A stretch of 64,000 nucleotides of DNA from Escherichia phage vB_EcoM_TH18: sequence record ON075799; one strand, written 5' to 3'. The position numbers and the translations under genes were made by a program. Positions 11,358 to 50,505 of the stretch are shown piece by piece; the first letter of the stretch is position 1; every line of letters starts with the position of its first letter. Under the pieces are notes generated by a model that was not told the DNA's origin, ran no database searches, and worked only from the letters and a program-made list of their open reading frames with translations.

Positions 11358-11408
11358 TAAGTTTTCTCCTCCGAAAACAATAAACATAGTTTATTTCGTG
11401 TGCCACAT

Positions 11409-12342: not shown

Positions 12343-12354
12343 AACATTCTCCTC

Positions 12355-12382
12355 AAAATAAAAACCCCTCCATGTGGAGGGG
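12355..12382 (-). terminator. rho-independent terminator after nadV
   Basis: Hairpin cccctcca/tggagggg preceded on the plus strand by an A-run (U-run on the minus transcript). Confidence 0.55.
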
Positions 12383-12395
12383 AATGATTATGGTG

Positions 12396-14111
12396 TTAAA
12401 GCTGTGATAAGGCTCTTTGGCGAATTTCTTCAAGATCCTCATCCACAAGCAGCTTACCATTAACAAAAACTGTTCTAAGCTCGTTATCATGGTCAGATAC
12501 TTGGTTAATACCAAGATTATCTACCAGCTTCAACTCGCCATCATCACCACGAATAACTTTAACAAAACCTTTCGCAGATTTCTTCCCAAGATCAGTCTTA
12601 GGCTCTTTTACGACCATTACTTGTCTGCCATCAATCACAGCACCAGTAGCTTTTACAGCCATCCCAAGAGAATCACGGGTTGTATATTGCGTTGTATAAG
12701 ACCCTACACCAAACACAATGTTACTGGAAGCAAACCCTCGTTCTTCAAGGCGCTCAAAGATCTCTTTAGCACGGGAGATTGTGATAGAGTCTCCGTAGAT
12801 TAAACCAACATGGCTATCAAGAACTTTGTAACCCAAAGAGTTTACACTACCACCAAAGATTTCCCACAAGCATTGTACAGCACCCTTAACTTCCTCTTTT
12901 GTCAGATAATTTGTAAATTCATCACCTGTCAAAGATTTCCAATCTACGAGGTTGCCTTCCGAATCTCGCATCCATGAAGTGTCTCTGGACATCTCGTATA
13001 AAGTGACATATTTGCCATTTTTAAACAGCACAGCATCCATGTCACAGCACTGCCCCGTTGCCCATTCTTCCTGAGAGCACACGCGATAACCAGCAATGAT
13101 GTGCTCTGGGATCCCACTGTCAGGTCGGAAGACCAGCTTGCCATCACGAGACATAATCTCATCTTTCAGGATTTTTGCTGCCTGTGTAATGATTGCCCAA
13201 AAATCATAGCTGTCAGCGACGTATGAAGCATAACCTGATGGGAAAATCTCTGTCACATAACGCTTTAAGAACTCAACTTCAGCACGAAAACGTGCTTCAT
13301 CAAGCGGCATATCAGGATTTTCCTGCTGGATACGCTCAACAATAAAACCAATGTTCGTTGTCGCTACGCTATGCTCAGATGCGGGAATAGACCCAGCAAC
13401 AAAGCGACCTTTCATGTTGTAATAGCGATTTGCGTAAACAATCGCTGGAATTGTATCTGTGCCCATTGAGCTAATCAGTTGCCCAAATTCGCTCTGTGCT
13501 GCGTCATGTGTTCCAGCTTCACCACGGTATGCAAAACAATGGTTCTGGAAAGGAACATGATCGTTGTTATCACATGTTTTCTTTGCCCACAGTTCTGATA
13601 GTTTACGGTATTGCCAGAAAGTCGTTGCCGTGGTAATTGTCTTCCAAGTCTCCGATGAGATCACGCTCTCAAGGAAGTTCGGCAGCCAGTAAAAATCAGG
13701 ATGCGTGTTCTGAATCGTGAACATGGGAACCTGAACAGGAACAAGAGTTCCTTCAGGCAAAGCCCTAATTTCAATTGGGAGATAACCAAGGTCATGCAAT
13801 TTCTCAAAACCCCAAGTTTCAACAGCATCCTTCCCAATGCTCAAATCACAAATCTCTTTGTAATCCTGAATCGCCTTTTCTTTCGGTAAAGCGAAGAAAT
13901 TATTATTAAACATGTCGATCAGGAACCACTTGATAAATCCCTGAAGACCTGCAAACATCACACGATGGTCATCATCTGCAAAGTGTACAAAGTGTTTCAC
14001 ATTGCGTGGGGTCATGTTGTCTTGAACAAACTGTGAACGTCTATCGTACATCGAGATGTGACTTGGTTTATAAAAATCTGCGAACAGCAATGGACTTTCT
14101 TTGTGAAGCAT
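12396..14111 (-). CDS. nadV: nicotinamide phosphoribosyltransferase (NAMPT/NadV family)
   Basis: 571 aa; overall resemblance to the NAMPT family by eye (not searched); adjacent to a PRPP synthetase gene. Confidence 0.7.
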   Translation of the reverse strand: MLHKESPLLFADFYKPSHISMYDRRSQFVQDNMTPRNVKHFVHFADDDHRVMFAGLQGFIKWFLIDMFNNNFFALPKEKAIQDYKEICDLSIGKDAVETWGFEKLHDLGYLPIEIRALPEGTLVPVQVPMFTIQNTHPDFYWLPNFLESVISSETWKTITTATTFWQYRKLSELWAKKTCDNNDHVPFQNHCFAYRGEAGTHDAAQSEFGQLISSMGTDTIPAIVYANRYYNMKGRFVAGSIPASEHSVATTNIGFIVERIQQENPDMPLDEARFRAEVEFLKRYVTEIFPSGYASYVADSYDFWAIITQAAKILKDEIMSRDGKLVFRPDSGIPEHIIAGYRVCSQEEWATGQCCDMDAVLFKNGKYVTLYEMSRDTSWMRDSEGNLVDWKSLTGDEFTNYLTKEEVKGAVQCLWEIFGGSVNSLGYKVLDSHVGLIYGDSITISRAKEIFERLEERGFASSNIVFGVGSYTTQYTTRDSLGMAVKATGAVIDGRQVMVVKEPKTDLGKKSAKGFVKVIRGDDGELKLVDNLGINQVSDHDNELRTVFVNGKLLVDEDLEEIRQRALSQL

Positions 14112-14174
14112 GATCTCAACCCTCCAACCTAAAAGCGTATTTTTTCACTAAAACGTATCTTTGTCAAGATGTAA

Positions 14175-14984
14175 TTAAAAATTTTCTGTCCAGTCGTAGT
14201 ACGCATAGATTTCGTCAACGCCACCGTTGAGAATAAATTCTTTCCCACGAGAGAAAATCCCATGCGTGACATACAAGATAACACGTTTAGCACCAGCAGC
14301 TTTCAAGGCTTGAGCTAAGTTTGTAAACGTAAACCCACCATCGCAGATATCATCAACAATCAGGCACATCTTCCCATCGACATCACCAAACACTGTTGTG
14401 CCTGTGATTGCCCCTGTTCCCACATCACGGATTTTACCAGCTTCAACCACAGATAGTTCCAAGGCATCAGCTACCTTCTGGGTCTTCTTGCGTGCACCTG
14501 CATCTGGAGCAACCAACACAAGCGATTCGTCCGTAAGCAGATCAAAATCAAACTTCATGTTCAAGAACAATTCAGTCTGAGAACGAATTTTCACGTTATC
14601 AAGCAGTGCTGCGGATACGTCACTGTGTGGGTCATCGACGATGACTTTGTGGAAACCCAGCGAGTTAATCATTGTGGCAAAGACTTTCACCGACAGAGCT
14701 TCACCAGGGTTCATAACTCGGTCTTGTCGAGCATACGGGATGTACGGCAGGTGTAAAACCTTTTCCACACCAACATCCAAATTGCCAAGACGATTGACTG
14801 CATCAACAAGCAACGCAAGACACATCACATCTTGGGAGTGCTTAATGCGAGCGAAGATATCCACAAAACCAATCGAACCCTTAGGGATATAGTGCATATC
14901 GATCTTCACCTGCTCCTCACCACCACTGAAGGTAAAATGGTCAACTGGAACATGCAACTTGTTCAAACTCAAACGAATATTCAT
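14175..14984 (-). CDS. prs: ribose-phosphate pyrophosphokinase (PRPP synthetase)-like
   Basis: Motifs PYIPYARQDR, VAPDAGARKK and PRPP-binding LIVDDICDGGFT match the Prs family pattern. Confidence 0.7.
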   Translation of the reverse strand: MNIRLSLNKLHVPVDHFTFSGGEEQVKIDMHYIPKGSIGFVDIFARIKHSQDVMCLALLVDAVNRLGNLDVGVEKVLHLPYIPYARQDRVMNPGEALSVKVFATMINSLGFHKVIVDDPHSDVSAALLDNVKIRSQTELFLNMKFDFDLLTDESLVLVAPDAGARKKTQKVADALELSVVEAGKIRDVGTGAITGTTVFGDVDGKMCLIVDDICDGGFTFTNLAQALKAAGAKRVILYVTHGIFSRGKEFILNGGVDEIYAYYDWTENF

Positions 14985-15382
14985 GATTTATCTCCTCTAG
15001 CACGATTGACGATAATATAATTTCTTGGTTTCACGTTACCATCAGAATCCTGAAATCCTGATCTGACACGCCTGACATAACCAAAGCTCTCCATCCGAGA
15101 CAGAAATTCAGACACTTTGGTTCGTGAGTTTTCGTTCCACCCCAACAGACCACACAAGGATTGCTGTGACGGAAAGAATACCAGTTCCCCACCCAAGGGG
15201 TTCCGACTCTTGAAATACTCGTATCTCCACAACAAGCGTATCAGTCTTTGCAGATCGCTTGGTGATAACCGTTCATCAAAAACCCACTCTGTCGGCACAG
15301 CGATGTACGACCCAGCTTTCGGATTTACATGGAAACCCCCAACATTCGATTTCAAGGCAAACTCCGGTGTGTAATTCAACAC
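14981..15382 (-). CDS. hypothetical protein (133 aa)
   Basis: ORF from six-frame track; first minus-strand gene beside the AT-rich strand-switch region. Confidence 0.5.
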   Translation of the reverse strand: MLNYTPEFALKSNVGGFHVNPKAGSYIAVPTEWVFDERLSPSDLQRLIRLLWRYEYFKSRNPLGGELVFFPSQQSLCGLLGWNENSRTKVSEFLSRMESFGYVRRVRSGFQDSDGNVKPRNYIIVNRARGDKS

Positions 15383-15452
15383 CGAGAATGCTACTCATAA
15401 CACCACACAATGTCAACCCCTCCCATATGTCCCCATTTCAGGGACATTATGA

Positions 15453-37380: not shown

Positions 37381-37739
37381 TCTCGTACCTTTGTGCTTTT
37401 TCTTACATTATCCCAAAAATCAAGGATATTTTGGTATCGGATCTTGTCTTCCATATATTCAGCCTCATCACGAAGATCGCATACATGGTCTATTAAGGCA
37501 CACACTTCATTATAGTGTTCTGTATCACTTGTGATGTGCTTAATCATACAAGATCCTGCTTTCCACTTTGAAAGTGAGTATCTCAGATTATCATCTTTCT
37601 CTGTGGGGGACGCGTCAACTAATATTTTTGCCTTATTGCCTTTTATCTTTTGTACCACCCCTCTGCGCAATTCATTATTACCCCAATAGATAAATACTGT
37701 ATCGCCAACAAACAGTTTTGTTCCGCTTGCGTCTCTCAT
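37377..37739 (-). CDS. hypothetical protein (120 aa)
   Basis: ORF from six-frame track; coupled to the nucleotidyltransferase gene (overlapping stop/start). Confidence 0.5.
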   Translation of the reverse strand: MRDASGTKLFVGDTVFIYWGNNELRRGVVQKIKGNKAKILVDASPTEKDDNLRYSLSKWKAGSCMIKHITSDTEHYNEVCALIDHVCDLRDEAEYMEDKIRYQNILDFWDNVRKSTKVRE

Positions 37740-37740
37740 T

Positions 37741-38085
37741 TTAAGACCCTAGTAAGAAGAAATAATAAATGGTTATTGCTGCAAAGTAAGTAATCCCGCT
37801 CAATAACCCAAACCAACATTGCTTGGCAGTATAAACTTTCTCTGACAAAAGATTATTCCCTGCTACAATATGCCTACACAACCAAACTCCCATCAAGAAT
37901 CCACCTATTAAGCCACCCGTCGGAGGTGTTAACATGGTGATCATTGCAAGACCTTCAAGCAAAGAGAATATTAAAAAACATGGGAATGCTTTTCTTTTAC
38001 ATTTAAAACCTTTTCCATCGACACAAACTTTGGCTAGGCTTGCTATGCAAAAGACCGTCCAAAGCACATACAATGTATAAACCAT
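37741..38085 (-). CDS. membrane protein (114 aa, 3-4 TM helices)
   Basis: Highly hydrophobic throughout. Confidence 0.5.
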   Translation of the reverse strand: MVYTLYVLWTVFCIASLAKVCVDGKGFKCKRKAFPCFLIFSLLEGLAMITMLTPPTGGLIGGFLMGVWLCRHIVAGNNLLSEKVYTAKQCWFGLLSGITYFAAITIYYFFLLGS

Positions 38086-38149
38086 AATCCACTTAACCTT
38101 CGAATGTTAACCTCTCCTATTCTATCAGAGAGGTTTCAAAAATGATCTA

Positions 38150-38647
38150 CTACTCACCTTTTAGCTTAAAACTTTTCAACGTTTTGATAAAGTCTTTCTC
38201 TGCTGGTGTGTAAGTGTGAACTAAACCTGTTTCTTCACAGGTGTAGGTATCATTAACCTCCATTGCATGTTGAGGGATAAATGTACCTTCAGGAACAGGC
38301 TTATATTCTGGGTTGTAGATAAACTCCGGCAGCACAACAGCCACAGCAGTCATTGCTCCATTCAAGGCTTCCTCTTCTTCACGCCACCAAGCATATGGAT
38401 AAGTTTTGAGAGGCATAAGTTGAGCAAGAAAATCTTGGAGTACTGACTGATAACCACCATTTAAAATAATGATGGTCTTATCTTTTTCTCTCCAACATTT
38501 CAACCAGTGGTGTGCGGTTAACTCCTCTGGCGCTCCTGCTGGTTGGTCATACCATGTCATGAGTTCCGCAATAGCATGTGCCGATTGGATACCTGCATGG
38601 ATACCGGAGATATACTGATTAACAACACAATACATTCTTGTTTTCAT
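38150..38647 (-). CDS. hypothetical protein (165 aa)
   Basis: ORF from six-frame track. Confidence 0.5.
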   Translation of the reverse strand: MKTRMYCVVNQYISGIHAGIQSAHAIAELMTWYDQPAGAPEELTAHHWLKCWREKDKTIIILNGGYQSVLQDFLAQLMPLKTYPYAWWREEEEALNGAMTAVAVVLPEFIYNPEYKPVPEGTFIPQHAMEVNDTYTCEETGLVHTYTPAEKDFIKTLKSFKLKGE

Positions 38648-38862
38648 TTTTCTTTCTTCCTAAAGATTATTCTATCTTCACTAAAAATTTCCTGTAACCC
38701 AGCAGCTATCAGTGCAAATATTGCTACCCACCATACAACTAACAGGAGTACCCCAACAAGCAAATCTCTACCTGTGATCTGTTGCTCAACCCTGTAGGTA
38801 ATAATAAAGAAAGCTACGGATACTAAAGCACCAACAAAGAAGTAGATAAACACTTCAGTCAT
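38644..38862 (-). CDS. small membrane protein (~73 aa)
   Basis: Start refined to MTEVFIYFF (ggaga RBS) to remove the frame overlap with the upstream gene. Confidence 0.45.
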   Translation of the reverse strand: MTEVFIYFFVGALVSVAFFIITYRVEQQITGRDLLVGVLLLVVWWVAIFALIAAGLQEIFSEDRIIFRKKEK

Positions 38863-39173
38863 TATCTCTTTTCTCCAAGTACCTTTTTTACCATAAGGGC
38901 CACAACGTAAATTCCCACAAGACAAATCCAGAATGTGAAAATAATAGGTAAAAGCATTACCGCAAGCGTTATAAACAGTGGTCCTGCAACAGTGACGAAT
39001 GCTGTTCCAAGCAACAACAAAAATACTACATATCTAACCGTTTCATCCACCTTCTTAAGATACACACCTAAACACACAGAAGACAATAGGAATGATAGAA
39101 TGGACAGCAACAGATACCAATTATCAATGAAAATGACAATTGGACTAGCAACATTTTCTAACCACCACATCAT
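38862..39173 (-). CDS. membrane protein (103 aa, 3 TM helices)
   Basis: Hydrophobic throughout. Confidence 0.5.
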   Translation of the reverse strand: MMWWLENVASPIVIFIDNWYLLLSILSFLLSSVCLGVYLKKVDETVRYVVFLLLLGTAFVTVAGPLFITLAVMLLPIIFTFWICLVGIYVVALMVKKVLGEKR

Positions 39174-39187: not shown

Positions 39188-40432
39188 TTAGAATAACATA
39201 TCCCTGCTAATTGCTTTACGAATAGCATCAATACGGGCTACTCGCACAGCTTCACCAATCTCTTTACCCTTCTTACCTTTTTCCAGAAGAGGGTTTGTGA
39301 TAGCTTTAGAATCAACTTTTGTCATAGCGTCATAGGCTTCCAACAAAATATGACCTTGAAGGTAAGGTTTATGCCTAAAATCACCACCTCTTCCTTTAGC
39401 ATCACAATAACATGCATCTGCAAGTGTGTAAACCTTCATTTTCTGATCAGCTTGTCCAGCAGCTTCAAATATTTTCATGATGCTTTTTGGTTTCAAACCG
39501 TTGTTACCATCTGTGGGAGAGATGGCGTGCACTTTTGTGTGATTTTCTGCAACATATTTTGCCGTGTCACGATAGATATTATAAATCTTTAACCTTTCGC
39601 ACAAAGATTGGATAACATCCGCACCAGCTTTTTCATGACCATGCAAATTACCATTGTTCTTGTAAGTTACAGCTTTGCCAAAATCATGGCAAAGCACAGC
39701 AAACTTGGTCAGTGGATCAGCTTCTAATTCATCGGCAACCCGTAACGCTAGAATTGTATGAGTGTAAGCATCCCCTTCTGGGTGGTGTTCTTTAGGTTGT
39801 TGTACACGACGCAGGGCTTCCAGTTCAGGAAGCTCGCCAATACGTCCCATATTGACAGCAAAAGATCTGAAATAATCACTCTTTAAGGCTTTCAACATTT
39901 CATTCCATTTACGCTCGGCGCTTATTTCTGCCAAAGAGTGTCGGTTGTCATAAGCCAGTTTAAAAGTCTCTGGGTGGATATGCCATTCTTCCCCAAGCTG
40001 GGCTTTAAATCTAAACAGGCGTAGAATACGTAACGGGTCTTCAATAAATGCCTGTGATGTATGACGTAATGTTTTAAGTCCTAAATCAACCTGGCCACCA
40101 AAAGGATCAATAATCTCACCACTGTCAACATCCATCGCCATGGAGTTGATGGTTAGATCTCTACGTGCCAAATCCTCTTCCAGAGTTACATCTGGGCTAA
40201 AGCATACCTCAAATCCTTTATGGCCTTCGCCTGTTTTTCTTTCTGTGCGTGCAAGAGCGTACTCTTCTTTTGTTTCTGGGTGAAGATAAACTGGAAAAGA
40301 TGCGCCAACTTGTGTGAACCCTCTTTTCAACATCTCTTCATGCGTAGCTCCAACAACAACATAATCACGGTCTGATAATTCACGACCCAATAATTTATCT
40401 CTAACCGCCCCACCTACCAAATATACCTTCAT
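39188..40432 (-). CDS. cca: tRNA nucleotidyltransferase (CCA-adding enzyme) with HD domain
   Basis: Start MKVYLVGGAVRDKLLG...DRDYVVVG (class II head) and HD-domain region; ATGA overlap with upstream stop. Confidence 0.85.
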   Translation of the reverse strand: MKVYLVGGAVRDKLLGRELSDRDYVVVGATHEEMLKRGFTQVGASFPVYLHPETKEEYALARTERKTGEGHKGFEVCFSPDVTLEEDLARRDLTINSMAMDVDSGEIIDPFGGQVDLGLKTLRHTSQAFIEDPLRILRLFRFKAQLGEEWHIHPETFKLAYDNRHSLAEISAERKWNEMLKALKSDYFRSFAVNMGRIGELPELEALRRVQQPKEHHPEGDAYTHTILALRVADELEADPLTKFAVLCHDFGKAVTYKNNGNLHGHEKAGADVIQSLCERLKIYNIYRDTAKYVAENHTKVHAISPTDGNNGLKPKSIMKIFEAAGQADQKMKVYTLADACYCDAKGRGGDFRHKPYLQGHILLEAYDAMTKVDSKAITNPLLEKGKKGKEIGEAVRVARIDAIRKAISRDMLF

Positions 40433-40701
40433 TTCTTCACCCACATGTTCATATAATTAACAATATCTTTTATGGTTCTCTTGCCGTCCAGTGGATAAAC
40501 CATGTCATCGCTCATCCCACCGTGTTTTAGCATTGCTACCAGCCTAGTATATACCCCTTTTGGTCTTTTGCAAGTTCTTTTCTTCCATTTATGACCGTCT
40601 GGGGAGTACTCCTTATCTTCAAGAGAGATATGAAGTATATCTCCTATAAACTCTTTTGCCTGTGTGCTGTAAAGTGGACGGTAGAATATGTAGAATTTCA
40701 T
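40429..40701 (-). CDS. hypothetical protein (~90 aa)
   Basis: Start tentatively MKFYIFYRPLY; stop overlaps cca start. Confidence 0.45.
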   Translation of the reverse strand: MKFYIFYRPLYSTQAKEFIGDILHISLEDKEYSPDGHKWKKRTCKRPKGVYTRLVAMLKHGGMSDDMVYPLDGKRTIKDIVNYMNMWVKK

Positions 40702-40760: not shown

Positions 40761-40785
40761 GAAAAACCCGCTAAAAAGCGGGTTA
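40761..40785 (-). terminator. rho-independent terminator (hairpin usable in both directions)
   Basis: aacccgc-taaaaa-gcgggtt flanked by A/T runs. Confidence 0.6.
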
Positions 40786-40790: not shown

Positions 40791-41072
40791 TTACCATGTT
40801 ACAAATATGTTTATAGATGTGCCTTGTTTTGTTGGTTGATAGCTAATAATATCCACCATGAAACCACCACCACGAAGATCGCCAACAATATGAGGCAGGT
40901 AATCACCCATTTCCTCCGGGAACTGTAGTGACATACCCATTCCAAATAGACCTTTCTTTGCACATTGGCTTATCCCGTTTACTATCTGGTCGTACAGTTC
41001 CACCAGAGATTTTGGGGTATCCTTCTTTGACTTGTTCGCTATCTCTCTCATTTTGCTGGCGACATTTGCCAT
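40791..41072 (-). CDS. hypothetical protein (93 aa)
   Basis: Strong RBS aagaggtaaaga upstream; overlaps the 3' end of the methyltransferase ORF in another frame. Confidence 0.5.
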   Translation of the reverse strand: MANVASKMREIANKSKKDTPKSLVELYDQIVNGISQCAKKGLFGMGMSLQFPEEMGDYLPHIVGDLRGGGFMVDIISYQPTKQGTSINIFVTW

Positions 41073-41583
41073 CTTTACCTCTTAAAAAATAGAAAGGCTT
41101 CAAATTAAGGGTGTTCTTTTTGTCCCACACATACCATGCATACCCGCTTCCATCTGTCTTACCATCCTCTGTAAAAGATGGTCTTTGAGAAAGTACAAGC
41201 AGAGATGTTGGGGGATTATCTTGCCACCACTCCCACCTTTTCATACTTTCAAGAAAACCAAGACGTAGAAGCATGATAACGACATCAGCATCACGTAGAG
41301 CTTTCTCAACAAACTCTTGAGCCAGTGAGTATGGAGGGTTAGAGATTATGATGTCTGTGTGATTATACTCTGTTGTCAGATAATCAACACCTTGGCGTAT
41401 TTCTCCCCAAGCACTTCCGATTGGTAGAAAATTATAAATCCTACCGGAAGCTCTGCACGGCTCCATATATTTCTTTTTCATATCTATGGGGATGACTTCC
41501 AACAGGGCTTCAACAGCCCATACTGGGGTTTCATACGTGTCGTACTCTCTCCGATCACCCTTCCTTTTCAGAGGTGCTACCAT
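40903..41583 (-). CDS. DNA N6-adenine methyltransferase
   Basis: Motif IV DIIISNPPY; the last ~55 residues are low-complexity and overlap the next gene, so the true 3' end is uncertain. Confidence 0.65.
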   Translation of the reverse strand: MVAPLKRKGDRREYDTYETPVWAVEALLEVIPIDMKKKYMEPCRASGRIYNFLPIGSAWGEIRQGVDYLTTEYNHTDIIISNPPYSLAQEFVEKALRDADVVIMLLRLGFLESMKRWEWWQDNPPTSLLVLSQRPSFTEDGKTDGSGYAWYVWDKKNTLNLKPFYFLRGKDGKCRQQNERDSEQVKEGYPKISGGTVRPDSKRDKPMCKERSIWNGYVTTVPGGNG

Positions 41584-42530
41584 CAGTTACCAACCTTTTC
41601 GATAGTTTCTTTCAAAATATCTTCGGAAACACTAAGAATTTGATTCAGTAGAATGTCTCTTTTGTGTGGTATTACTCTGGTCTCATTCTCACCATATTGC
41701 AGGTTGTTTAATTGCGCAAGAATTTCTTTTAGCTCGTCAACGTTAAAACCATCAAAATCACGGTCGTTCAAAGTTGACATATTGAAACTAAAATTCTCGC
41801 CACCAACGGTAATGTTCATAAGCATTTCTTGTACCTCACCCTTAGGAACGGCATCTATGTTTTTGGGTGTGACATTCTTAACCACTGTTGTTTTTGTGGT
41901 TTTTAGGCCAGTTACATACCGCAAACCTTGCTGTTCTCTTCGGATATTCTCTTTATCCAGTAAAGCGGCTTCAGTGCGTACCAAAATATCTTCTTCTGTC
42001 AGCCAAACTTCCCCACCACCTTTAATGGTTTCCATTTCTTCAGGTGTTAGCACATCCTTATAGAAATGATCGAAGACACGATCAAAGTAGTCTTTTTGGA
42101 ACACAGCTTGGCGGTAAATGTTGGATCCGTCCCCGCCTATCCAACCCTGATAGTTATGGAACATAAAAATTGTCAATGGTGAGACAGTTCTGCGCTCACA
42201 TGCCAACCATAATACTGTTCCTGCTGAACACACTTGGCCTTCTGCATGAACAATAACCATGGCCTGACTTTCTCGGATGGCGCTAACGTATGCCATAGCA
42301 ATAGCAACATCCCCACCCAATGTATTTATAATAATGCGTACTGTATCCTCTGGATTGGCTGCACGAATTGTTTGTAATCGCTCTTGGTGGTCTTCCAACC
42401 AATGCATCTCATTAACGTATATGACATGATTATTAGCATGAGCACGATATGTAAAAACGTTAGCAGTCTCTACACGGTTAACATTAAAACCATTATTCAG
42501 TTTTTGCATTACAACCTTCTCCGTTTTCAA
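41583..42530 (-). CDS. ClpP-family (S14) serine protease-like protein
   Basis: TLGGDVAIAMAYVSAI and GQVCSAGTVL resemble the ClpP fold and active-site serine region; 315 aa. Confidence 0.55.
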   Translation of the reverse strand: MKTEKVVMQKLNNGFNVNRVETANVFTYRAHANNHVIYVNEMHWLEDHQERLQTIRAANPEDTVRIIINTLGGDVAIAMAYVSAIRESQAMVIVHAEGQVCSAGTVLWLACERRTVSPLTIFMFHNYQGWIGGDGSNIYRQAVFQKDYFDRVFDHFYKDVLTPEEMETIKGGGEVWLTEEDILVRTEAALLDKENIRREQQGLRYVTGLKTTKTTVVKNVTPKNIDAVPKGEVQEMLMNITVGGENFSFNMSTLNDRDFDGFNVDELKEILAQLNNLQYGENETRVIPHKRDILLNQILSVSEDILKETIEKVGN

Positions 42531-42990
42531 TGAGGATGCCCCTCAAAATATGACTATTACTCAAAAGCCAATCTATGTTTATGCCACACTCCTCATCAAC
42601 AATAACTTTGTCGCTGTACATGGAGCACCGGATAACTCTACGGGCATATTCAGCCGCTATAGCTGCTTGGTGTATAATTGTAAACCTATCGAGATCTTTT
42701 TTAGCAAGATAAATGAACTTAGATTTGCCATTCATACAGATAAGGTGCTCTAGCAACTCAATTCTGTTAGAGAACATCAATTCGGCATCCCTCTTAGCAG
42801 CACTTTCAGAATAAAACATACTAGCCAAGAAGCCTTTATTAACAATTCTCAAAGAATTAGCTACTGTGATCATATATCTATTATAAAGCTCAGTAGCCAT
42901 CTCTTCAAACACGTCAGGCTCTACAACCCCACAATTCTGTAACTTTACCAAGGTATCGTTTGTTAAGACACTGTAGACAGTACTTTTCAT
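42493..42990 (-). CDS. hypothetical protein (165 aa)
   Basis: ORF from six-frame track. Confidence 0.5.
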   Translation of the reverse strand: MKSTVYSVLTNDTLVKLQNCGVVEPDVFEEMATELYNRYMITVANSLRIVNKGFLASMFYSESAAKRDAELMFSNRIELLEHLICMNGKSKFIYLAKKDLDRFTIIHQAAIAAEYARRVIRCSMYSDKVIVDEECGINIDWLLSNSHILRGILIENGEGCNAKTE

Positions 42991-42996: not shown

Positions 42997-43326
42997 CTAC
43001 CTAGCAATTAAATATCGTATCTTTCCGTCATCTTCCTGATACCCGACATCTACAACATAGTATTCTCCAACATCAGGAATCAACAACTTATCCCCAACTT
43101 CATACTCTTTTTGGGTATGATACACCATTGACTCTGTAAAATATTTGTACTTATTTGTATCGTTAATGTTGCATGAAACTTCCATTTCTCCGCTCTTGTT
43201 GAGGATAAGAATATCCTCACCATTCTTTTTTCCAACCACATAACCGCCAGCCAATGTCTTGACCAAGCACAGTGTTTTATTGAGTTTGTCTTGGAACTTT
43301 GGCAAAAGAGTCCTCCATCTTGTCAA
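42997..43326 (-). CDS. hypothetical protein (109 aa)
   Basis: ORF from six-frame track. Confidence 0.5.
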   Translation of the reverse strand: MTRWRTLLPKFQDKLNKTLCLVKTLAGGYVVGKKNGEDILILNKSGEMEVSCNINDTNKYKYFTESMVYHTQKEYEVGDKLLIPDVGEYYVVDVGYQEDDGKIRYLIAR

Positions 43327-43921
43327 GGAAAGTTTTTAGGAGTTTTATTCTTTCTGGTGTGTTAAGATTAAGAGTTTTAATCCCTTTCATTTTGGCAAGG
43401 TTGACAGCAGTGGCTGTACCTCCTTTCGGGTTTCCGTTCTTATCTTCTTTTGCAAAGTAAAGCACAAAGGAAGATGGCTTTGGGTTGTTAATATTCACTC
43501 CCAATACTTGATGCACATTCCTGGAATGTAGAGCAAATGCTGCTCTGTTTCTCAGCAATGCTTGTGGGTTTGGATGCACCTTTTGTACTAACTCATTTCG
43601 GTATTCCATTTGCTCGATATACAGATGGTTAATATATTGTAAGTCATAATCCCAGTTATCGTACAAATCAGCTTCTTTATCACCAAAACCTTTCCATGGT
43701 ATGTAAATTTCTGCGAGTCTGTTACCATACAACATCTTTGTTTTATCGTCAAGGCTATTGAAATATCGCTGCATCCCTCTCTGGAACGCTGCATCGGCTC
43801 CTTCTGCCTTACCGCTCCGCAATGTAAACCCTAACCCAGCCAGTCTAAAAGCAGCGTCTTCCATGACGCTGATAACTTCTGGGGGTGTTTCACGAGAACC
43901 TACCCCAGTATAATAACGCAT
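43277..43921 (-). CDS. Rossmann-fold protein of the DprA/LOG-like (SLOG) type
   Basis: N-terminal YTGVGSRETP...SGKAEGADAAFQRG motif. Confidence 0.5.
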   Translation of the reverse strand: MRYYTGVGSRETPPEVISVMEDAAFRLAGLGFTLRSGKAEGADAAFQRGMQRYFNSLDDKTKMLYGNRLAEIYIPWKGFGDKEADLYDNWDYDLQYINHLYIEQMEYRNELVQKVHPNPQALLRNRAAFALHSRNVHQVLGVNINNPKPSSFVLYFAKEDKNGNPKGGTATAVNLAKMKGIKTLNLNTPERIKLLKTFLDKMEDSFAKVPRQTQ

Positions 43922-43929: not shown

Positions 43930-44715
43930 TTATGATGCCATTGGTGTGTAAATACCTTTATCTCTGTCTTTCAACAATCCCTTGGCGATCTCCTTGACAA
44001 CACCACCACGGACTACATCCTGTAGTTGATTAAATTGAACAATACCCACACCAGAAATATTATGTCTGTGGAGAAAATCTTCAACCCATTCCAAACCAGA
44101 GACACCACGTATATCTTTTTGACTTTCATCCCCCATGATGACAAGAGTGCAATTATCTGAAATGCGAGTTACAATACTCAGCATTTCTTCTGGAGTGCTT
44201 TGTTGTGCCTCGTCAATCAGCAGGAAGCTGTTTTCATCAAACGATCTTCCTCTAATACTTTCCAACTCTTGCACCTCGATACGTCCATGCAATCCATCTT
44301 TCAATGAATTGTAATACGCCCCATCACCCATTCTTTTACGAATTGTGTCGAGCATATTTCTTACGTAAGGATATAGTTTCTCCAGAGTAGAACCAGGTTT
44401 GAAGCCTGAGGTCTTTCCCGTTTGCACATATGGTCTTGCCACAATGATTTTATCTATCTCATTTTTCCTGAGAAGATCAGCAGCATATGCAGAGGCGAGA
44501 TATGTCTTTCCTGTTCCAAAGATCCCTTTTGCTATAATGATGTTACAGGTCTTAAGTTTTTGGAGGTAATCTTGTTGCTTTCTATTCATGGCAACAAGTG
44601 CTGGGGCGCTGTTTCTATCTTCATCAAACTTAGGATTGTATTTCATCTTTCTTTCAGCGCGTGCTTTCTTCCTTGCGGCAAGTTTCAAAGCACGCGTCTC
44701 TTTACTTCTTCCCAT
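43930..44715 (-). CDS. phoH: PhoH-like ATPase
   Basis: Walker A GIFGTGKTYLA and Walker B LLIDEAQ in PhoH-typical context. Confidence 0.85.
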   Translation of the reverse strand: MGRSKETRALKLAARKKARAERKMKYNPKFDEDRNSAPALVAMNRKQQDYLQKLKTCNIIIAKGIFGTGKTYLASAYAADLLRKNEIDKIIVARPYVQTGKTSGFKPGSTLEKLYPYVRNMLDTIRKRMGDGAYYNSLKDGLHGRIEVQELESIRGRSFDENSFLLIDEAQQSTPEEMLSIVTRISDNCTLVIMGDESQKDIRGVSGLEWVEDFLHRHNISGVGIVQFNQLQDVVRGGVVKEIAKGLLKDRDKGIYTPMAS

Positions 44716-46498: not shown

Positions 46499-46875
46499 GT
46501 ATGTTTCACTCTCTCTACAACTTCTTGCATCTTACCCTTGTTATAAGGACGGCTGTTTGGAGCAGACAAATATCCAGACACACGTCTAATCACACTTATT
46601 GTTTCTTCATCATGATTGCCACAAGAAGGGCACTCGAATCCCTTAGCTGTGGCCTTGAACTCACCAGAGAAACCACACTCGTAACATCTATCTACAGGCT
46701 GATTTATACCAAAATAAGGGATGTGTTCATATCCATAATCCACTAAGGCTTCCAACGCTTGCATGTTGTTTCTTAGATTAGGAACTTCCACATAACCTAT
46801 GTTACCACCATTGCTTATCTCAGCAAACCCACATTCATAATCCCATTTGGAGAATGGATCAGACGTTTTCCACAC
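46495..46875 (-). CDS. nrdD: anaerobic ribonucleotide reductase NrdD, 3' exon (glycyl-radical and zinc-ribbon region)
   Basis: CYECGFSGEF...CPSCGNHD zinc ribbon and RRVSGYL glycyl-radical motif. Confidence 0.75.
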   Translation of the reverse strand: MWKTSDPFSKWDYECGFAEISNGGNIGYVEVPNLRNNMQALEALVDYGYEHIPYFGINQPVDRCYECGFSGEFKATAKGFECPSCGNHDEETISVIRRVSGYLSAPNSRPYNKGKMQEVVERVKHT

Positions 46876-46879
46876 TGGT

Positions 46880-47240
46880 TGATGAAACGAGTTTGTCAGA
46901 TAATCTCTTTCGATTAATCCTGGGTATGCTTCTTTAAGTTTTGTGGCAAATTTATAACACAGAGATTCTGCCGATGTACCGCTGCTTTCGCAGTATTTTC
47001 ACGGACTAGACTATATCACGATCTTGTGACCACTCACAAGACCCTCCACATTTCGCCATTCAAGGCTACTCTACTCGCTTCTTCACATCAGGTGAAGCTG
47101 ATGCTATGCTTTCGATAGTCGTTAGAGACAATCTCTTGCCTACGGGGTTAGCTCTGCCCCAACAGGGTTTAGCCTTTCTTACCAGCTTATTGTTTATTCA
47201 GCTATGCCCGTTTAGTGGAGTTATTCGACAACCATCACTG
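46880..47240 (-). mobile_element. putative group I intron in nrdD (no ORF; boundaries approximate)
   Basis: ~360 nt non-coding insert between nrdD segments; R-like gatagtcgtt (~47120) and S-like agactatatc (~47003) elements. Confidence 0.5.
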
Positions 47241-47753
47241 GTTGAAGGCCCAATTGTGTTTAGGCGTGCCATATAGGCTAAATGCTAAACCACTTCGCTC
47301 TTTAAAATCAGCACAAATATCCTTCATATATTTCAAGATATTCATTGCCATCTCTTTACGAACTGGTTCGCCATACAAAATTTCAACTGCTTCATAAAGA
47401 CCCACATAGCCAATACTGATTGATGCGTAGCCATTAAAGAAGAGTTTACTAATCTTTTCATCAGGTCCGAGCCGTGCAATAGCCCCCTCCATAAACATTG
47501 TGGGATTCTGGGATGCTTTTACATCCATCAATCTACCGACTCTAACCATGTGCGCTTTATACGCCATTTCCATGTGCTTTTCAAGCAATTCGGTAAACAG
47601 AGTTTTCTTAGATTTTGCTTCTGCTGCAATCATAGGTAAGTTTAGAGAGACAACACCAAGATTGAATCTACCATCATATTTCTCACCATGTTCTGTTGCA
47701 TAATAAGATAAGAAACTTCTACACATTATGTTCGAAGTGGTTCGCAAGGCCAC
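47235..47753 (-). CDS. nrdD: anaerobic ribonucleotide reductase NrdD, central exon (ORF ends extend into introns)
   Basis: In-frame segment between two intron-like inserts, assigned to nrdD by position; true exon limits likely ~47245-47725. Confidence 0.6.
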   Translation of the reverse strand: MALRTTSNIMCRSFLSYYATEHGEKYDGRFNLGVVSLNLPMIAAEAKSKKTLFTELLEKHMEMAYKAHMVRVGRLMDVKASQNPTMFMEGAIARLGPDEKISKLFFNGYASISIGYVGLYEAVEILYGEPVRKEMAMNILKYMKDICADFKERSGLAFSLYGTPKHNWAFNQ

Positions 47754-47985
47754 TCCCGCACCACTACGTGCTGCTGCATGTCACCATGCAGACCAGACCA
47801 TATCTTCATGCTTAAAGCATGTCTGCCGTTTGGGGTGTCATCAGCTTACACTCTACATCCCTACATTCATCAGGATTGGTCGTTAGGCATTTACGGTTGA
47901 TACCGATTTAGCACGGGATTCCCTCCATAGAGGATTCCCCCGTTTAGGCAGATTTTACATGAGCAGTTATAGTTTACCCATGCTT
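47726..47985 (-). mobile_element. putative group I intron in nrdD (no ORF; boundaries approximate)
   Basis: Non-coding insert with a 38-nt block (47755-47792) identical to one in the terminase intron (609-646); S-like agaccatatc and R-like ggtcgtta elements. Confidence 0.5.
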
Positions 47986-49142
47986 GTAACACGCCCGTCT
48001 GAAGAACCTGTTACCTTTTTATTCAACGGTACAGATATGAAATCTGGATAAATCCTTTCAACACAACACTCCATGGCTAATTGCTTTAAGTCGTAGTTGG
48101 GATCGCCAGGTTTCATGTTTACACCATCTTCCAAGAAGAAGATAACTTTTGGAAAAACAGGTGTGACTTTGTCTTTGCCAAGTCCGTTTTTGTGAACAAG
48201 AAGATAATTCTTTGTAATCATTCTCCCAAAATAGGAAGTATCAAGCCCAAGACTCAAGGTGATAAATGGGCATTGACCGTTAGCACTCATCAAGGTATTT
48301 ACCTGATAAAGCAATGTCTGCATAGCATCGTAAACATCTTTTTCCGTCATCTGCATAGCTACACCTTCTGGGTCTGGCAGCCATTGCTCCTGACAAAATT
48401 TTAGATTTTTATCGTAACTTGCCTTGGCATATTGTTTTAATCCTTCATCAATATGGGTGTATGACTGACCACCATATTGAACCGAAGAAACTGATTGGGA
48501 TATCTGGCTAAGAATGGTACAGGCAACACCTATCGATTTCGGCTTTTCTATTTTTGCATTGCCAATTTTAAAACCGTTCTCCAACATATCCCTATAATTT
48601 ACAAGACTGCAATTAGTTAATGGGCTTATCAAATAATCTAAGTCATGTATATGACCATAACCATTTGTATGCCATTCAGCCAATTCTTTTGGTAGAATTT
48701 GAGTTAGTGAGACGTGCTTGCTAAGGATACCCGCGAGAAGATCACGATGGCTACTAACCACCCCACTTGGTTTATTAGCGTTTTCTTTAGTAAATTCATC
48801 GGCAGTTTGTTCTAAGAATCCCGTAATATCTGCAAACAGTTTTCCTTTACCTTCCCTAACGTTATCACGCGTTTTACGATATTCAATATACGCCCGTGCA
48901 GCGTTCTTGAGGTCAAGATCCATTAGTGAATCTTCCACAATGCGGTGAATATCACAAACAGCCACTTTCTCTTGCGGTGGTTCTGATTTTTCCAGAGTTT
49001 CATAGGCTTGCTCGCCAACTGCACACGCCAGAGGATATGATTTCTCACCATAACCAGCAGCAATTAAAGCGGCTTCTGCCGCTTTAATAACTTTCACACC
49101 ATCATAATCTTCTTCACGCCCATCACGTTTAACAACTTTCAT
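47967..49142 (-). CDS. nrdD: anaerobic ribonucleotide reductase NrdD, 5' exon (N-terminal region)
   Basis: N-terminus MKVVKRDGREEDYDGVKVIKAAEAA (ATP-cone-like); ORF 3' end likely runs a few codons into the intron. Confidence 0.75.
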   Translation of the reverse strand: MKVVKRDGREEDYDGVKVIKAAEAALIAAGYGEKSYPLACAVGEQAYETLEKSEPPQEKVAVCDIHRIVEDSLMDLDLKNAARAYIEYRKTRDNVREGKGKLFADITGFLEQTADEFTKENANKPSGVVSSHRDLLAGILSKHVSLTQILPKELAEWHTNGYGHIHDLDYLISPLTNCSLVNYRDMLENGFKIGNAKIEKPKSIGVACTILSQISQSVSSVQYGGQSYTHIDEGLKQYAKASYDKNLKFCQEQWLPDPEGVAMQMTEKDVYDAMQTLLYQVNTLMSANGQCPFITLSLGLDTSYFGRMITKNYLLVHKNGLGKDKVTPVFPKVIFFLEDGVNMKPGDPNYDLKQLAMECCVERIYPDFISVPLNKKVTGSSDGRVTSMGKL

Positions 49143-49145
49143 TGT

Positions 49146-49415
49146 TTATTCCCCCAGTTCAGTATTAATAAACGCAATAAATTCATCTGCCGTGCCAACA
49201 TATACAGTATCGACACCGCACTCATAAAAAATCCGTGGGACTGTTTTTGGGATAACAGGAGAGCATTTTAAGACCAATTCCTCTTTGGTGAAATCTTCTC
49301 CTAATTTCTTATAGATAAAGTTAAGTCCTTTTTGTTTTGCAAACTCTTTTGCTCTTACACAATGAGGGCAATTATCTTTCCCATAAATTACAAACGTGCA
49401 TTCTTTAAAGTTCAT
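49146..49415 (-). CDS. glutaredoxin/thioredoxin-like redoxin
   Basis: Start refined to MNFKECTFVIYGKDNCPHC (CxxC active site); next to nrdB. Confidence 0.7.
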   Translation of the reverse strand: MNFKECTFVIYGKDNCPHCVRAKEFAKQKGLNFIYKKLGEDFTKEELVLKCSPVIPKTVPRIFYECGVDTVYVGTADEFIAFINTELGE

Positions 49416-49416
49416 C

Positions 49417-50505
49417 TTAAAAATCCCAGATTTCTTCTTCTGCATCATTCACCGTTGTGTTAACACGATAGTCTGTGTTGGACATTTCTTGGTTAGCCGT
49501 CTGCTGCAATGCAGGATTCATCCATACTTGCATTAACGGTAAAGGGTCTTTGGAAGGAGGGTTGAAGTCCCTATCAAATCCAAAATGGTCATAGATAGGA
49601 GCACAATTATAATCAACCCACTCTTTCAGCAATGATTCGTTAAGGCCAATGATTGCCCTACCATCACTGAAGATATAGTGACTCCAACTATACTCTTTAA
49701 ATCTAACTTCGTCAAGAATTTCTTTCAATTCATGTTTGATGGCATTAAAGCTGTTCAACCATACAGGATCTTCTAACAGAATTTCAATAATTGCAAAGTC
49801 GTTTTTTGTATGGAGAATCTCATCAAGCATTATTTTTTGCACAAGCTGTGCAACTTGAACAAAAATCCCCTGTTCCGCTAGAGCAAATGTGCACGCAAAA
49901 CTGGATATGAACTCTATGGCCTCTAGGCCAAGCAGAGCAAACATAGCTCTCAGAATACCTCTACGGATATCTTCTTTATCTATAGAAGCAGGATCCAGTC
50001 TGTATTTAGCACCAAGAACTTCTAGTTCACGCATATATTTGACAATGACACCAGATCTGTTTAAAACTTCTTGGTTGTTTTGTACTTCTTCAATAATTTC
50101 TCGTGCATTTGGCAAACACTGTCTGACAATTTCTGAGTATGTCAAAGCATGAAGCACTTCGATTTCTGCCTGTTTCATCATCAAAGCGTATAATTCACTG
50201 TTTGTGATGAATGGGGCAAATAAACAGATAATTGATTGCGCTGCAACACTATCAGCTTCCCATTGCCACATCAAAGTTTGCACCATAACATCATAGGTTG
50301 ATTTACTGCATGTAGCAAAATCTGAAATTGATTGTACTAAATCAACTTCGTCTTCTGACCAGTCTTGCTCTTTTTGTTTTTTATACAAATCGAAAAGTTT
50401 TGGGTATTTTTTATTAATGGAGTCATACATCCCCATCTGCTGACCAAGAAACAGAGGGTAATCCCCAGTTTTATGTGCTGTGTTTTCTGTATTGAATAAT
50501 GCCAT
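49417..50505 (-). CDS. nrdB: ribonucleotide reductase small subunit (class I beta)
   Basis: 362 aa; assigned by overall resemblance to the R2 family and position directly downstream of nrdA. Confidence 0.85.
   Translation of the reverse strand: MALFNTENTAHKTGDYPLFLGQQMGMYDSINKKYPKLFDLYKKQKEQDWSEDEVDLVQSISDFATCSKSTYDVMVQTLMWQWEADSVAAQSIICLFAPFITNSELYALMMKQAEIEVLHALTYSEIVRQCLPNAREIIEEVQNNQEVLNRSGVIVKYMRELEVLGAKYRLDPASIDKEDIRRGILRAMFALLGLEAIEFISSFACTFALAEQGIFVQVAQLVQKIMLDEILHTKNDFAIIEILLEDPVWLNSFNAIKHELKEILDEVRFKEYSWSHYIFSDGRAIIGLNESLLKEWVDYNCAPIYDHFGFDRDFNPPSKDPLPLMQVWMNPALQQTANQEMSNTDYRVNTTVNDAEEEIWDF

What the first reader, a model, noticed from the sequence alone, without database searches (positions are those of the whole stretch)
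41583..42530. ClpP-family protease homolog located among early/DNA-metabolism genes
The 315-aa protein has ClpP-like motifs but sits with PhoH, a methyltransferase and the CCA enzyme rather than with head genes. It may be a host-proteolysis modulator rather than a prohead protease.
Basis: inference. Interest (0 to 1): 0.35.

Follow-up and report, generated by a model that had tools for sequence, protein, structure and literature searches.

The report
Auxiliary ClpP-like protease of a phage
This is a real, already-catalogued phage gene for a ClpP-fold serine protease that is not the capsid-maturation protease; it sits in a replication and nucleotide-metabolism gene block, carries a swappable C-terminal domain, and has no known function.

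Summary
The ORF is real. The window is Escherichia phage 18-1-2 (Avunavirus, Vequintavirinae). The likely start is the ATG at 42509 (308 aa), not the TTG at 42530.

The protein has a confident ClpP fold. Ser95 and His118 are invariant in 81 homologues. Glu167 sits where ClpP has its catalytic Asp.

It is not the prohead protease. The same phage has a portal / XkdF-type (Peptidase_S78_2) protease / putative scaffold / decoration / capsid module elsewhere. The PhoH – DprA-like – ClpP-like – methyltransferase – CCA-enzyme order is conserved across Vequintavirinae, and partly in ICP1. In ICP1 the homologue lies at the edge of a gene range that peaks mid-infection, while the capsid protease is late.

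It fails the curated thresholds for both true ClpP and ClpP-related head-maturation proteases. The ClpX/ClpA docking pocket is largely dismantled.

The 80-aa C-terminal domain has no detectable relatives. It occurs as two deep alleles exchanged by recombination exactly at the linker.

The family has been annotated since the rV5 and PVP-SE1 genomes, so this is ordinary. I found no functional study.

The parts
41583..42509 (-). ClpP-like protease gene, 308 aa plus stop.
   Evidence: ORF list; SD sequence plus ATG; PHROG 5410 E=1.6e-125; 100% identical to UDW09910.1 of Escherichia phage 18-1-2 and 86% to Av-05 Av05_0072, annotated 'ATP-dependent protease'.
41925..42431 (-). ClpP-fold protease domain (aa 27-195), including the long handle helix 128-150.
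   Evidence: AF2 model with pLDDT about 90 over this span; Foldseek top hits are all ClpP; Pfam PF00574.
42225..42227 (-). Codon for Ser95, the predicted nucleophile (motif GQVCSAGT).
   Evidence: Invariant in 81/81 homologues and aligned to ClpP Ser97.
42156..42158 (-). Codon for His118 (motif FMFHNYQG).
   Evidence: Invariant in 81/81 homologues and aligned to ClpP His122.
42009..42011 (-). Codon for Glu167, at the position of ClpP Asp171.
   Evidence: HMMER alignment to P. aeruginosa ClpP2, 'ERDFWL' against 'GGEVWL'. The position is E in Avunavirus, rV5-like, Certrevirus and PaP1; D in ICP1, nt-1 and T5-like Spivey; Q in the PVP-SE1 group.
41826..41924 (-). Flexible, low-complexity linker (aa 196-228).
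   Evidence: pLDDT below 50 for residues 202-226; variable length and sequence among homologues; omega 0.27.
41586..41825 (-). Family-specific C-terminal domain (aa 229-308): beta-hairpin, short helix and two long helices. Together with the linker it forms a recombination-swapped module.
   Evidence: AF2 model pLDDT 83.6; no structural or sequence relatives found; dS 2.3 against 0.21 for the protease domain, with omega 0.06; divergence island at 41600-41900; two alleles.
40903..41583 (-). DNA methyltransferase gene (NPPY motif). Its start codon overlaps the protease stop codon, which suggests translational coupling.
   Evidence: PHROG 799 E=3e-80; TGATG junction. The protease-methyltransferase pair is conserved in PVP-SE1, rV5-like phages and DU_PP_I.
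42493..42990 (-). Upstream 165-aa gene of unknown function (PHROG 7224). It overlaps the protease start by 17 nt.
   Evidence: Present at the same position in Av-05, PVP-SE1 and DU_PP_I; absent in rV5-like RudolfGeigy.
42997..43921 (-). A gene of about 102 aa of unknown function (PHROG 5456) and the DprA-like gene (43277..43921), both in the same conserved block.
43930..44715 (-). PhoH-like ATPase gene.
   Evidence: PF02562.
39188..40444 (-). CCA tRNA nucleotidyltransferase gene.
   Evidence: PolyA_pol plus HD domains.
40765..40784 (-). Terminator-like hairpin followed by a T-run, downstream of the methyltransferase. It is the likely end of the transcription unit that contains the protease gene (inference).
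   Evidence: Consensus scan only.

Best explanation
The gene encodes an auxiliary, non-structural ClpP-fold serine peptidase made during the replication and nucleotide-metabolism phase of infection.

Shown:
- A ClpP fold with the handle helix.
- An invariant Ser95/His118 pair, with Glu167 at the canonical Asp position.
- A disordered linker of about 30 residues.
- An 80-aa C-terminal domain under purifying selection.
- A separate XkdF-type prohead protease in the head module.
- Conserved synteny with PhoH, a DprA-like gene, a methyltransferase and the CCA enzyme.

Inferred:
- The protease domain assembles into ClpP-like rings that enclose the active sites.
- It works in the infected-cell cytoplasm on host or phage proteins or peptides.
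- It does not dock host ClpX/ClpA through the canonical IGF-loop pocket, so it is probably not ATP-dependent in the ClpXP sense.
- The tethered C-terminal domain, which is exchanged as a cassette between otherwise near-identical phages, acts as the partner- or substrate-recognition module.

The substrate is unknown.
For: Fold and active site:
-.

Not the prohead protease:
- The head module, with a Peptidase_S78_2 protease (E=1e-15), lies elsewhere in the same phage.
- There is no second copy of either domain in the genome.

Context:
- The same gene order occurs in PVP-SE1, rV5-like phages and DU_PP_I, and in environmental contigs.
- ICP1 has lysozyme-like – PhoH – gp209 – gp210 – ClpP-like gp211.
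- In nt-1 the gene lies between frd and uvsX. In PaP1 it is near the dCMP deaminase and ligase genes. In T5-like Spivey it is next to the dNMP-phosphatase gene.

Timing and virion content:
- The rV5 homologue is not among the 19 virion proteins detected by MS (PMC3606486).

Docking pocket (E. coli residue list from bioRxiv 10.1101/2023.03.01.530711; mapping):
- Replaced: Y60->R58, F82->E80, I90->H88, M92->E90, L114->S110, V44->T47.
- Deleted: L48-A52.
- R58 and E90 are invariant in the family; E80 and H88 are at least 90% conserved.

C-terminal domain:
- It is functional and modular: omega 0.06, dS saturated against 0.21 for the protease domain, and two alleles on identical N-domains.
Against: - No experiment on any member was found. 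For the T5-like BF23 homologue the authors state that the function is 'currently unknown'.
- Ring assembly, lack of ClpX/ClpA docking and the role of the C-terminal domain are inferences from a monomer model and from alignments at about 20% identity to ClpP.
- The best curated HMM hit is a ClpP-related head-maturation protease model.
- The BF23 homologue was detected at low level in purified virions.
- In most homologues sampled (67/81) the third triad position is Gln, so the acid is not universally required.
- ICP1 gp211 shares only the protease domain (34% identity; no C-domain match), so its timing transfers only by analogy.
Confidence: 0.6

Rival explanations
1. It is a genuine ClpP replacement or supplement. 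It docks the host ClpX or ClpA unfoldase, or co-assembles with host ClpP as in ClpP1/ClpP2 heterocomplexes. It thereby redirects ATP-dependent proteolysis in the infected cell. This corresponds to the database label 'ATP-dependent protease' and to the first reader's 'host-proteolysis modulator'.
For: - ClpP fold and handle helix.
- The best PDB sequence hits are heterocomplex-forming ClpPs: P. aeruginosa ClpP2 (7m1l/9ndj, E=5e-9) and ClpP chains 4jcr/4jcq (E about 8e-5), which I recall, unchecked, to be Listeria ClpP1.
- No phage-encoded Clp-type unfoldase is annotated in the related Av-05 genome, so any ATPase partner would have to come from the host.
Against: - Most IGF/ADEP-pocket residues are replaced by conserved polar or charged residues, or deleted.
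- The region of ClpP helix A and the N-terminal gating loops has no counterpart and is modelled as disordered.
- The residue before the third triad position is an invariant Gly instead of ClpP Arg170.
- Scores against curated ClpP models are 18-33 bits, against cut-offs of 228-347.
- Identity to ClpP is only about 20%.
Confidence: 0.15
2. It is a morphogenetic or virion-associated protease. It would be a second maturation enzyme that trims tail, internal or scaffold proteins, or a protease that is packaged and delivered with the DNA. The C-terminal helical domain would then act as a targeting or scaffold-like tail.
For: - The closest curated model is NF045542 'head maturation protease, ClpP-related' (53.7 bits). 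This scores higher than any ClpP model.
- It also matches PHROGs 1684, 94 and 53, labelled head maturation protease.
- The T5-like BF23 'Clp protease' ORF45 was detected in purified virions with 3 peptides (PMC10644984).
- From my own knowledge, ClpP-like prohead proteases often carry C-terminal targeting or scaffold extensions, as in lambda C/Nu3.
Against: - It scores below the NF045542 cut-off of 120.
- The gene is never in a head or tail module in six phage groups examined.
- A dedicated XkdF-type protease sits between portal and scaffold.
- The ICP1 homologue gp211 bounds a gene range that peaks mid-infection, not late.
- It is absent from the rV5 virion MS list.
- The BF23 preparation also contained dihydrofolate reductase, which suggests carry-over of abundant non-structural proteins.
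- The C-terminal domain has no similarity to any other protein of the phage, including the putative scaffold.
Confidence: 0.15
3. It is a catalytically dead or non-proteolytic ClpP-fold protein, for example a chaperone-like ring or a decoy that sequesters host factors.
For: - The canonical Asp is not conserved; it is Gln in 67/81 homologues.
- The polar residues that replace the docking pocket are strongly conserved, which suggests a binding surface.
Against: - Ser95, His118, both glycines of the GG motif (oxyanion-hole glycine) and the GxGxN handle motif are invariant or nearly so.
- An acidic residue occupies the third position in seven of the eight lineages compared.
- Omega is 0.07 over the protease domain.
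Confidence: 0.05

Closest known systems
PHROG 5410 / Vequintavirinae 'ATP-dependent protease' (rV5 gene 122, PVP-SE1 gp151, Av-05 Av05_0072, RudolfGeigy bas52_0175 'ClpP-like protease')
   Same: Full-length match (E=1.6e-125). It has the same two-domain architecture, the same length (303-324 aa; rV5 is annotated as 349 aa), and the same neighbours: PhoH, a DprA-like gene, the methyltransferase and the CCA enzyme.
   Different: Nothing essential. This phage carries the rarer 'A' allele of the linker plus C-terminal domain, which is 76% identical to the Av-05-type 'B' allele, while the N-domains are 96-100% identical.
Bacterial ClpP (MEROPS S14; TIGR00493; E. coli ClpP, P. aeruginosa ClpP2)
   Same: The fold (TM 0.65-0.77), the Ser and His positions, the oxyanion GG motif, the handle helix and the Gly-rich handle strand.
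   Different: - About 20% identity.
- Glu, or Gln in relatives, in place of Asp171.
- No Arg170 equivalent.
- The helix A and N-terminal gating region is not recognisable.
- A 5-residue deletion at the end of helix B.
- The IGF-loop pocket is largely polar.
- An extra linker and C-terminal domain.
- It fails the curated ClpP score thresholds.
ClpP-related phage head-maturation proteases (NCBIfam NF045542; PHROGs 1684, 94, 53)
   Same: It is the best-scoring curated profile over residues 40-173. These are also phage-encoded and, as far as known, ATP-independent ClpP-fold enzymes.
   Different: It scores 53.7 against a cut-off of 120. The gene is not in a head module. The phage has a different (XkdF/S78_2) protease at the prohead-protease position.
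Short auxiliary ClpP-like proteins of other large virulent phages (PHROG 1827: ICP1 gp211, Vibrio phage nt-1 ORF271, PaP1 gp041, T5-like Spivey gp45 / BF23 ORF45)
   Same: The protease domain is homologous (E=2.6e-42 to the PHROG; 31-39% identity). The Ser-His-Asp/Glu residues are retained. The genes lie among replication, nucleotide-metabolism or early genes rather than head genes, and ICP1 also has PhoH two genes upstream.
   Different: They lack the Vequintavirinae C-terminal domain. ICP1 and nt-1 have unrelated extensions and PaP1 has none. Their function is equally unknown.

Membership tests
Canonical ClpP (ATP-dependent Clp protease proteolytic subunit, S14) | ClpP alpha/beta fold with the handle region | tested here: met
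   AF2 core pLDDT is about 90, with a long helix at 128-150. The Foldseek top 50 hits are all ClpP, TM 0.60-0.77 normalised on the target.
Canonical ClpP (ATP-dependent Clp protease proteolytic subunit, S14) | Ser-His-Asp catalytic triad | tested here: inconclusive
   Ser95 and His118 are invariant. The Asp position holds Glu167 here, Gln in 67/81 homologues, and Asp in ICP1, nt-1 and T5-like relatives.
Canonical ClpP (ATP-dependent Clp protease proteolytic subunit, S14) | Scores above curated family thresholds | tested here: not met
   TIGR00493 gives 18.1 bits against 308.6. PRK12553 gives 33.5 against 228. PRK00277 gives 26 against 249. Only the permissive Pfam PF00574 passes (40.6 against 20.2), and it matches only profile positions 33-130 of 182.
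Canonical ClpP (ATP-dependent Clp protease proteolytic subunit, S14) | Hydrophobic pocket that binds the IGF/IGL loops of ClpX/ClpA (the basis of ATP dependence) | tested here: not met
   Of the 16 E. coli pocket residues, three are kept as hydrophobic: V28->V29, F30->Y31 and Y62->I60. Six are replaced: Y60->R58, F82->E80, I90->H88, M92->E90, L114->S110 and V44->T47. Four (L48, F49, E51, A52) fall in a deletion spanning L48-A52. Three cannot be aligned. This is alignment-based, not structural.
Canonical ClpP (ATP-dependent Clp protease proteolytic subunit, S14) | N-terminal gating loops and helix A lining the axial pore | tested here: not met
   Residues 1-23 have pLDDT below 50 and no helix precedes the first strand. 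Profile alignments to ClpP begin only at the first strand. The family has its own conserved N-terminal motif: N6, F8, Y21.
Canonical ClpP (ATP-dependent Clp protease proteolytic subunit, S14) | Tetradecamer of two stacked heptameric rings | not testable with these tools
   Only monomer prediction was available. The Arg that precedes the catalytic Asp in ClpP is an invariant Gly here. From my own knowledge, that Arg is the inter-ring 'oligomerisation sensor'.
ClpP-related head-maturation protease (NF045542) | Scores above the curated threshold | tested here: not met
   53.7 bits against a cut-off of 120.
ClpP-related head-maturation protease (NF045542) | Gene lies in the head module, next to portal, scaffold and major capsid protein genes | tested here: not met
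   It lies between the PhoH/DprA-like genes and the methyltransferase/CCA-enzyme genes. In the related Av-05 genome the ClpP-like gene (39489-40415) lies about 45 kb around the circular 120.9-kb genome from the head module (114.8-119.5 kb). The head module has its own XkdF-type protease.
ClpP-related head-maturation protease (NF045542) | Late expression and presence in proheads | not testable with these tools
   Indirect evidence only. ICP1 gp211 lies at the edge of a gene range in which a subset peaks at 12 min, not late. The rV5 homologue is not among 19 virion proteins. The BF23 homologue was detected weakly in virions.
PHROG 5410 (Vequintavirinae two-domain ClpP-like protease) | Full-length match to the family profile, including the C-terminal domain | tested here: met
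   E=1.6e-125 over residues 8-313 of the 315-aa form, against profile positions 1-321 of 323. The C-terminal 83 aa alone give E=5.7e-20.

The most novel reading that the evidence does not exclude
The protein is an ATP-independent, self-compartmentalised protease. Its recombination-swapped C-terminal domain would target it to a variable host factor, for example an anti-phage defence or stress-response protein. The widespread auxiliary ClpP-like genes of large virulent phages (Vequintavirinae, ICP1, T5-like, KVP40-like, Pakpunavirus) would then be an unrecognised class of proteolytic counter-defence or host-takeover enzymes.
Probability: 0.1. Interest if true: 0.7.

Novelty: already known. Interest (0 to 1): 0.25.

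Why it matters
As an observation it adds little. The gene has been annotated as a ClpP-type protease since the rV5 and PVP-SE1 genomes, and its position away from the head genes is visible in every annotated relative.

Three points could be useful:
- The common label "ATP-dependent protease" is not supported by the sequence, because the unfoldase-docking pocket is not conserved.
- A related auxiliary ClpP-fold protease is kept by at least five unrelated groups of large lytic phages, always next to replication or nucleotide-metabolism genes, and I found no functional study of any of them.
- In the Avunavirus group the linker plus C-terminal domain is a cassette with two deep alleles. That marks it as the likely specificity element and gives a handle for experiments.

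If the substrate turned out to be a host defence or regulatory protein, this would be a new host-takeover mechanism.

Tried and rejected
Searches that led nowhere:
- Fold search of the C-terminal domain model against the PDB gave a best E of 0.53 and TM below 0.3. The top hit, ZapA, is only a loose topological resemblance.
- phmmer of the C-terminal domain against 1.8 billion representatives gave 0 hits.
- A profile of the C-terminal domain (A3) against 5.8 billion proteins returned nothing. It did not even recover the family itself, so this negative is uninformative.
- PADLOC defence models gave no hit for the protease or its three upstream neighbours, apart from a meaningless Cas6b hit at E=0.0016 for the 109-aa ORF at 42997..43326.
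- I looked for a paralogue of either domain, for example in the scaffold as with lambda C/Nu3, in the whole Av-05 genome, the window and the 18-1-2 head module. There is none.
- I looked within ±10 kb, across six related loci, for a partner locus with the same A/B allele split. Only 41600-41900 splits that way. Other islands (37600-38100, 38700-38900) group the phages differently.
- The promoter scan found no more promoter-like sites than in shuffled sequence (27 against 24±5.7). The sigma-70-like site at 46143-46115 and the terminator at 40784-40765 are therefore only suggestions.
- No functional study of any phage auxiliary ClpP-like protein was found.

Ideas considered and rejected:
- The TTG at 42530 as the start codon. 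The ATG at 42509 fits better.
- Relaxed or positive selection as the cause of C-terminal divergence. Omega is 0.06 and dS is saturated, which points to recombination instead.
Full report
**Observation**

The window matches Escherichia phage 18-1-2 at 100% identity (Avunavirus, Vequintavirinae; GenBank OK136180 plus OK136181). It is 91-94% identical to phage Av-05.

- The minus-strand ORF at 41583..42530 exists, with 315 codons from a TTG.
- Relatives are annotated from the ATG at 42509 (308 aa). That ATG follows GGAGAAGG, and the family profile match starts at residue 8 of the long form.
- I use 308-aa numbering below.
- The stop codon overlaps the start of the downstream methyltransferase gene (TGATG).
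- The start overlaps the upstream 165-aa ORF by 17 nt.

**What the protein is**

Family and structure searches agree on a ClpP fold.

- Pfam CLP_protease matches at E=3e-10, but only over residues 48-143.
- PHROG 5410 "ATP-dependent protease" matches full length at E=1.6e-125.
- An AlphaFold model built on 42 homologues gives three parts:
  - a confident ClpP core (residues 27-195, pLDDT about 90), including the long handle helix;
  - a disordered N-terminus (1-23) and a disordered linker (202-226);
  - a separate C-terminal domain (229-308).
- All top Foldseek hits in the PDB are ClpP, with TM 0.65-0.77 on the target and about 20% identity.

The catalytic residues are largely in place.

- Ser95 and His118 are invariant in 81 sequences.
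- HMMER aligns ClpP's catalytic Asp to Glu167.
- Across lineages that position varies:
  - Glu in Avunavirus, rV5-like phages, Certrevirus and PaP1;
  - Asp in ICP1, nt-1 and T5-like Spivey;
  - Gln in the PVP-SE1 group.
- A working Ser-His-acid triad is therefore plausible for this protein.

**Is it the prohead protease? No.**

- Just upstream of the window, the same phage encodes a typical head module:
  - terminase;
  - portal (Portal_Mu);
  - a Peptidase_S78_2/XkdF protease (E=1e-15, above threshold);
  - a 333-aa protein at the scaffold position;
  - a decoration protein;
  - the major capsid protein.
- Av-05 has the same layout.
- Neither domain of the ClpP-like protein has a paralogue elsewhere in the genome.
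- The block Nrd – endolysin – PhoH – DprA-like – small ORFs – ClpP-like – methyltransferase … CCA enzyme is conserved in Seunavirus (PVP-SE1), Certrevirus (DU_PP_I), Vequintavirus (RudolfGeigy) and in metagenomic contigs.
- Protease-domain homologues in other large lytic phages also sit among replication or nucleotide-metabolism genes:
  - ICP1 gp211, two genes after PhoH;
  - nt-1, between frd and uvsX;
  - PaP1;
  - T5-like Spivey, next to the dNMP phosphatase gene.
[quoted passage not shown] The capsid cluster with protease gp125 is late (PMC7567579).
- In rV5 the gene is listed as "ClpP (ATP-dependent) protease subunit". It is not among the 19 proteins detected in virions, but that survey was shallow (PMC3606486).

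**Is it a true ClpP? Not by the tests I could run.**

- Curated NCBIfam ClpP models score 18-33 bits against cut-offs of 228-347.
- The best curated hit is actually "head maturation protease, ClpP-related". It scores 53.7 bits, also below its cut-off of 120.
- I mapped the E. coli ClpP residues that form the ADEP/IGF-loop docking site (list from bioRxiv 10.1101/2023.03.01.530711) through a family-profile alignment:
  - kept as hydrophobic: V28->V29, F30->Y31, Y62->I60;
  - replaced: Y60->R58, F82->E80, I90->H88, M92->E90, L114->S110, V44->T47;
  - deleted: L48-A52.
- R58 and E90 are invariant in the family, and E80 and H88 are nearly so.
- Helix A and the gating loops have no counterpart.
- The Arg that precedes the catalytic Asp in ClpP is an invariant Gly here.
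- The label "ATP-dependent" is therefore inherited from the Pfam name, not supported by the sequence.
- These are alignment-based inferences at low identity, and multimer modelling was not available.

**The C-terminal domain**

- Modelled alone it is confident (pLDDT 83.6): a hairpin, a short helix and two long helices.
- It has no structural relative in the PDB and no sequence relative outside the family (the second search was uninformative).
- It is shared by Seunavirus, Vequintavirus and, weakly, Certrevirus. It is absent from ICP1, nt-1 and PaP1.

One finding here is new, though small.

- Between this phage and Av-05, nucleotide identity falls to 64-78% exactly over the linker plus C-terminal domain (41586-41930). 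The flanks are 94-99% identical.
- Synonymous divergence is 2.3 in the C-terminal domain against 0.21 in the protease domain. Omega is about 0.06-0.07 in both.
- This is therefore a swapped module of older ancestry, not relaxed selection.
- Homologue P0002 has an N-domain identical to the window protein, but its linker is 61% identical and its C-domain 76% identical.
- There are two alleles: A (window, P0001) and B (P0002-P0010, including Av-05).
- Within ±10 kb no other locus shows the same A/B split.
- The pattern fits a partner- or substrate-recognition module, but does not identify the partner.

**Mechanism, with confidence**

- Most likely (about 0.6 overall): an auxiliary cytoplasmic ClpP-fold serine peptidase made with the middle-phase genes.
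- About 0.8 that it is an active protease distinct from the prohead protease.
- About 0.4 that it acts without host unfoldases.
- The tethered C-terminal domain would provide specificity.

Rivals:

- **A true ClpX/ClpA-dependent ClpP substitute, or a mixed complex with host ClpP (0.15).** The best PDB sequence hits are heterocomplex-forming ClpPs.
- **A morphogenetic or virion-associated protease (0.15).** This is supported by the profile affinity to head-maturation proteases and by weak detection of the BF23 homologue in virions. That preparation also contained DHFR, and the authors call the function unknown (PMC10644984).
- **A non-catalytic ring (0.05).**

**Novelty**

The exact protein is in GenBank, where it is labelled hypothetical. 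Its family is catalogued as PHROG 5410 and has been annotated as ClpP-like since rV5 and PVP-SE1. In Alteromonas phage V22, which carries PhoH (CDS-146) next to a Clp protease (CDS-147), the Clp protease is listed as viral-metabolism-related (PMC7289586). The finding is correct but ordinary. The open question is function, which only experiments can settle.

Noticed in passing
window 41586-41930: A sharp divergence island covers exactly the linker plus C-terminal domain of the ClpP-like gene. Identity to Av-05 is 64-78%, against 94-99% in the flanks. dS is 2.3 against 0.21, with omega about 0.06. Two alleles (A and B) are shuffled relative to the N-domain among related phages and metagenomic contigs.
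   Followed up: yes
window 37600-38100 and 38700-38900: Two further small mosaic islands lie in genes for small membrane proteins (ORFs 37741..38085, 38644..38925 and 38862..39173). Identity to some relatives is 56-77%. They group the related phages differently from the ClpP-like C-domain island.
   Followed up: partly
window 15447/15448: The window runs straight across the junction between the two GenBank scaffolds of phage 18-1-2: the end of OK136180 and the start of OK136181. The order is collinear with Av-05, so the join is plausible. It could also be a concatenation of the two deposited scaffolds.
   Followed up: partly
window 1-4000 and L004:11776-15489: The terminase large-subunit gene is annotated in three pieces, interrupted by an HNH homing endonuclease gene. 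It is similarly fragmented in Av-05.
   Followed up: no
window about 46500-50000: The anaerobic ribonucleotide reductase gene nrdD is annotated in three pieces in this phage. Related contigs carry different insertions at the same place: a NUMOD4 protein in L013 and an HNH_3/DUF723 protein in L017. In L017 the nrdA product is 1102 aa and has intein and LAGLIDADG domain hits. This looks like a hotspot of mobile introns and inteins.
   Followed up: no
window 5815-11486: A cluster of 16 tRNA genes lies on the minus strand, including three tRNA-Ser and two tRNA-Met. The phage also encodes its own CCA-adding enzyme (39188..40444).
   Followed up: no
window 10500-15400 (by comparison with Av-05 10571-13159 and OK136180 76396-78984): Nicotinamide phosphoribosyltransferase and ribose-phosphate pyrophosphokinase genes are present, which suggests an NAD+ salvage module.
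   Followed up: no
L004:9508-10197: The best PHROG hit of the XkdF-type prohead protease is phrog_1530, labelled 'DNA methyltransferase' (E=5.6e-58, matching only the C-terminal half of that profile). This is probably a label inherited from fusion proteins and could mislead automatic annotation.
   Followed up: partly
window 40791-41072: A 93-aa ORF overlaps the 3' end of the methyltransferase gene by about 170 nt in another frame. Av-05 annotates only a 39-aa ORF here, so the long form is probably not real.
   Followed up: no
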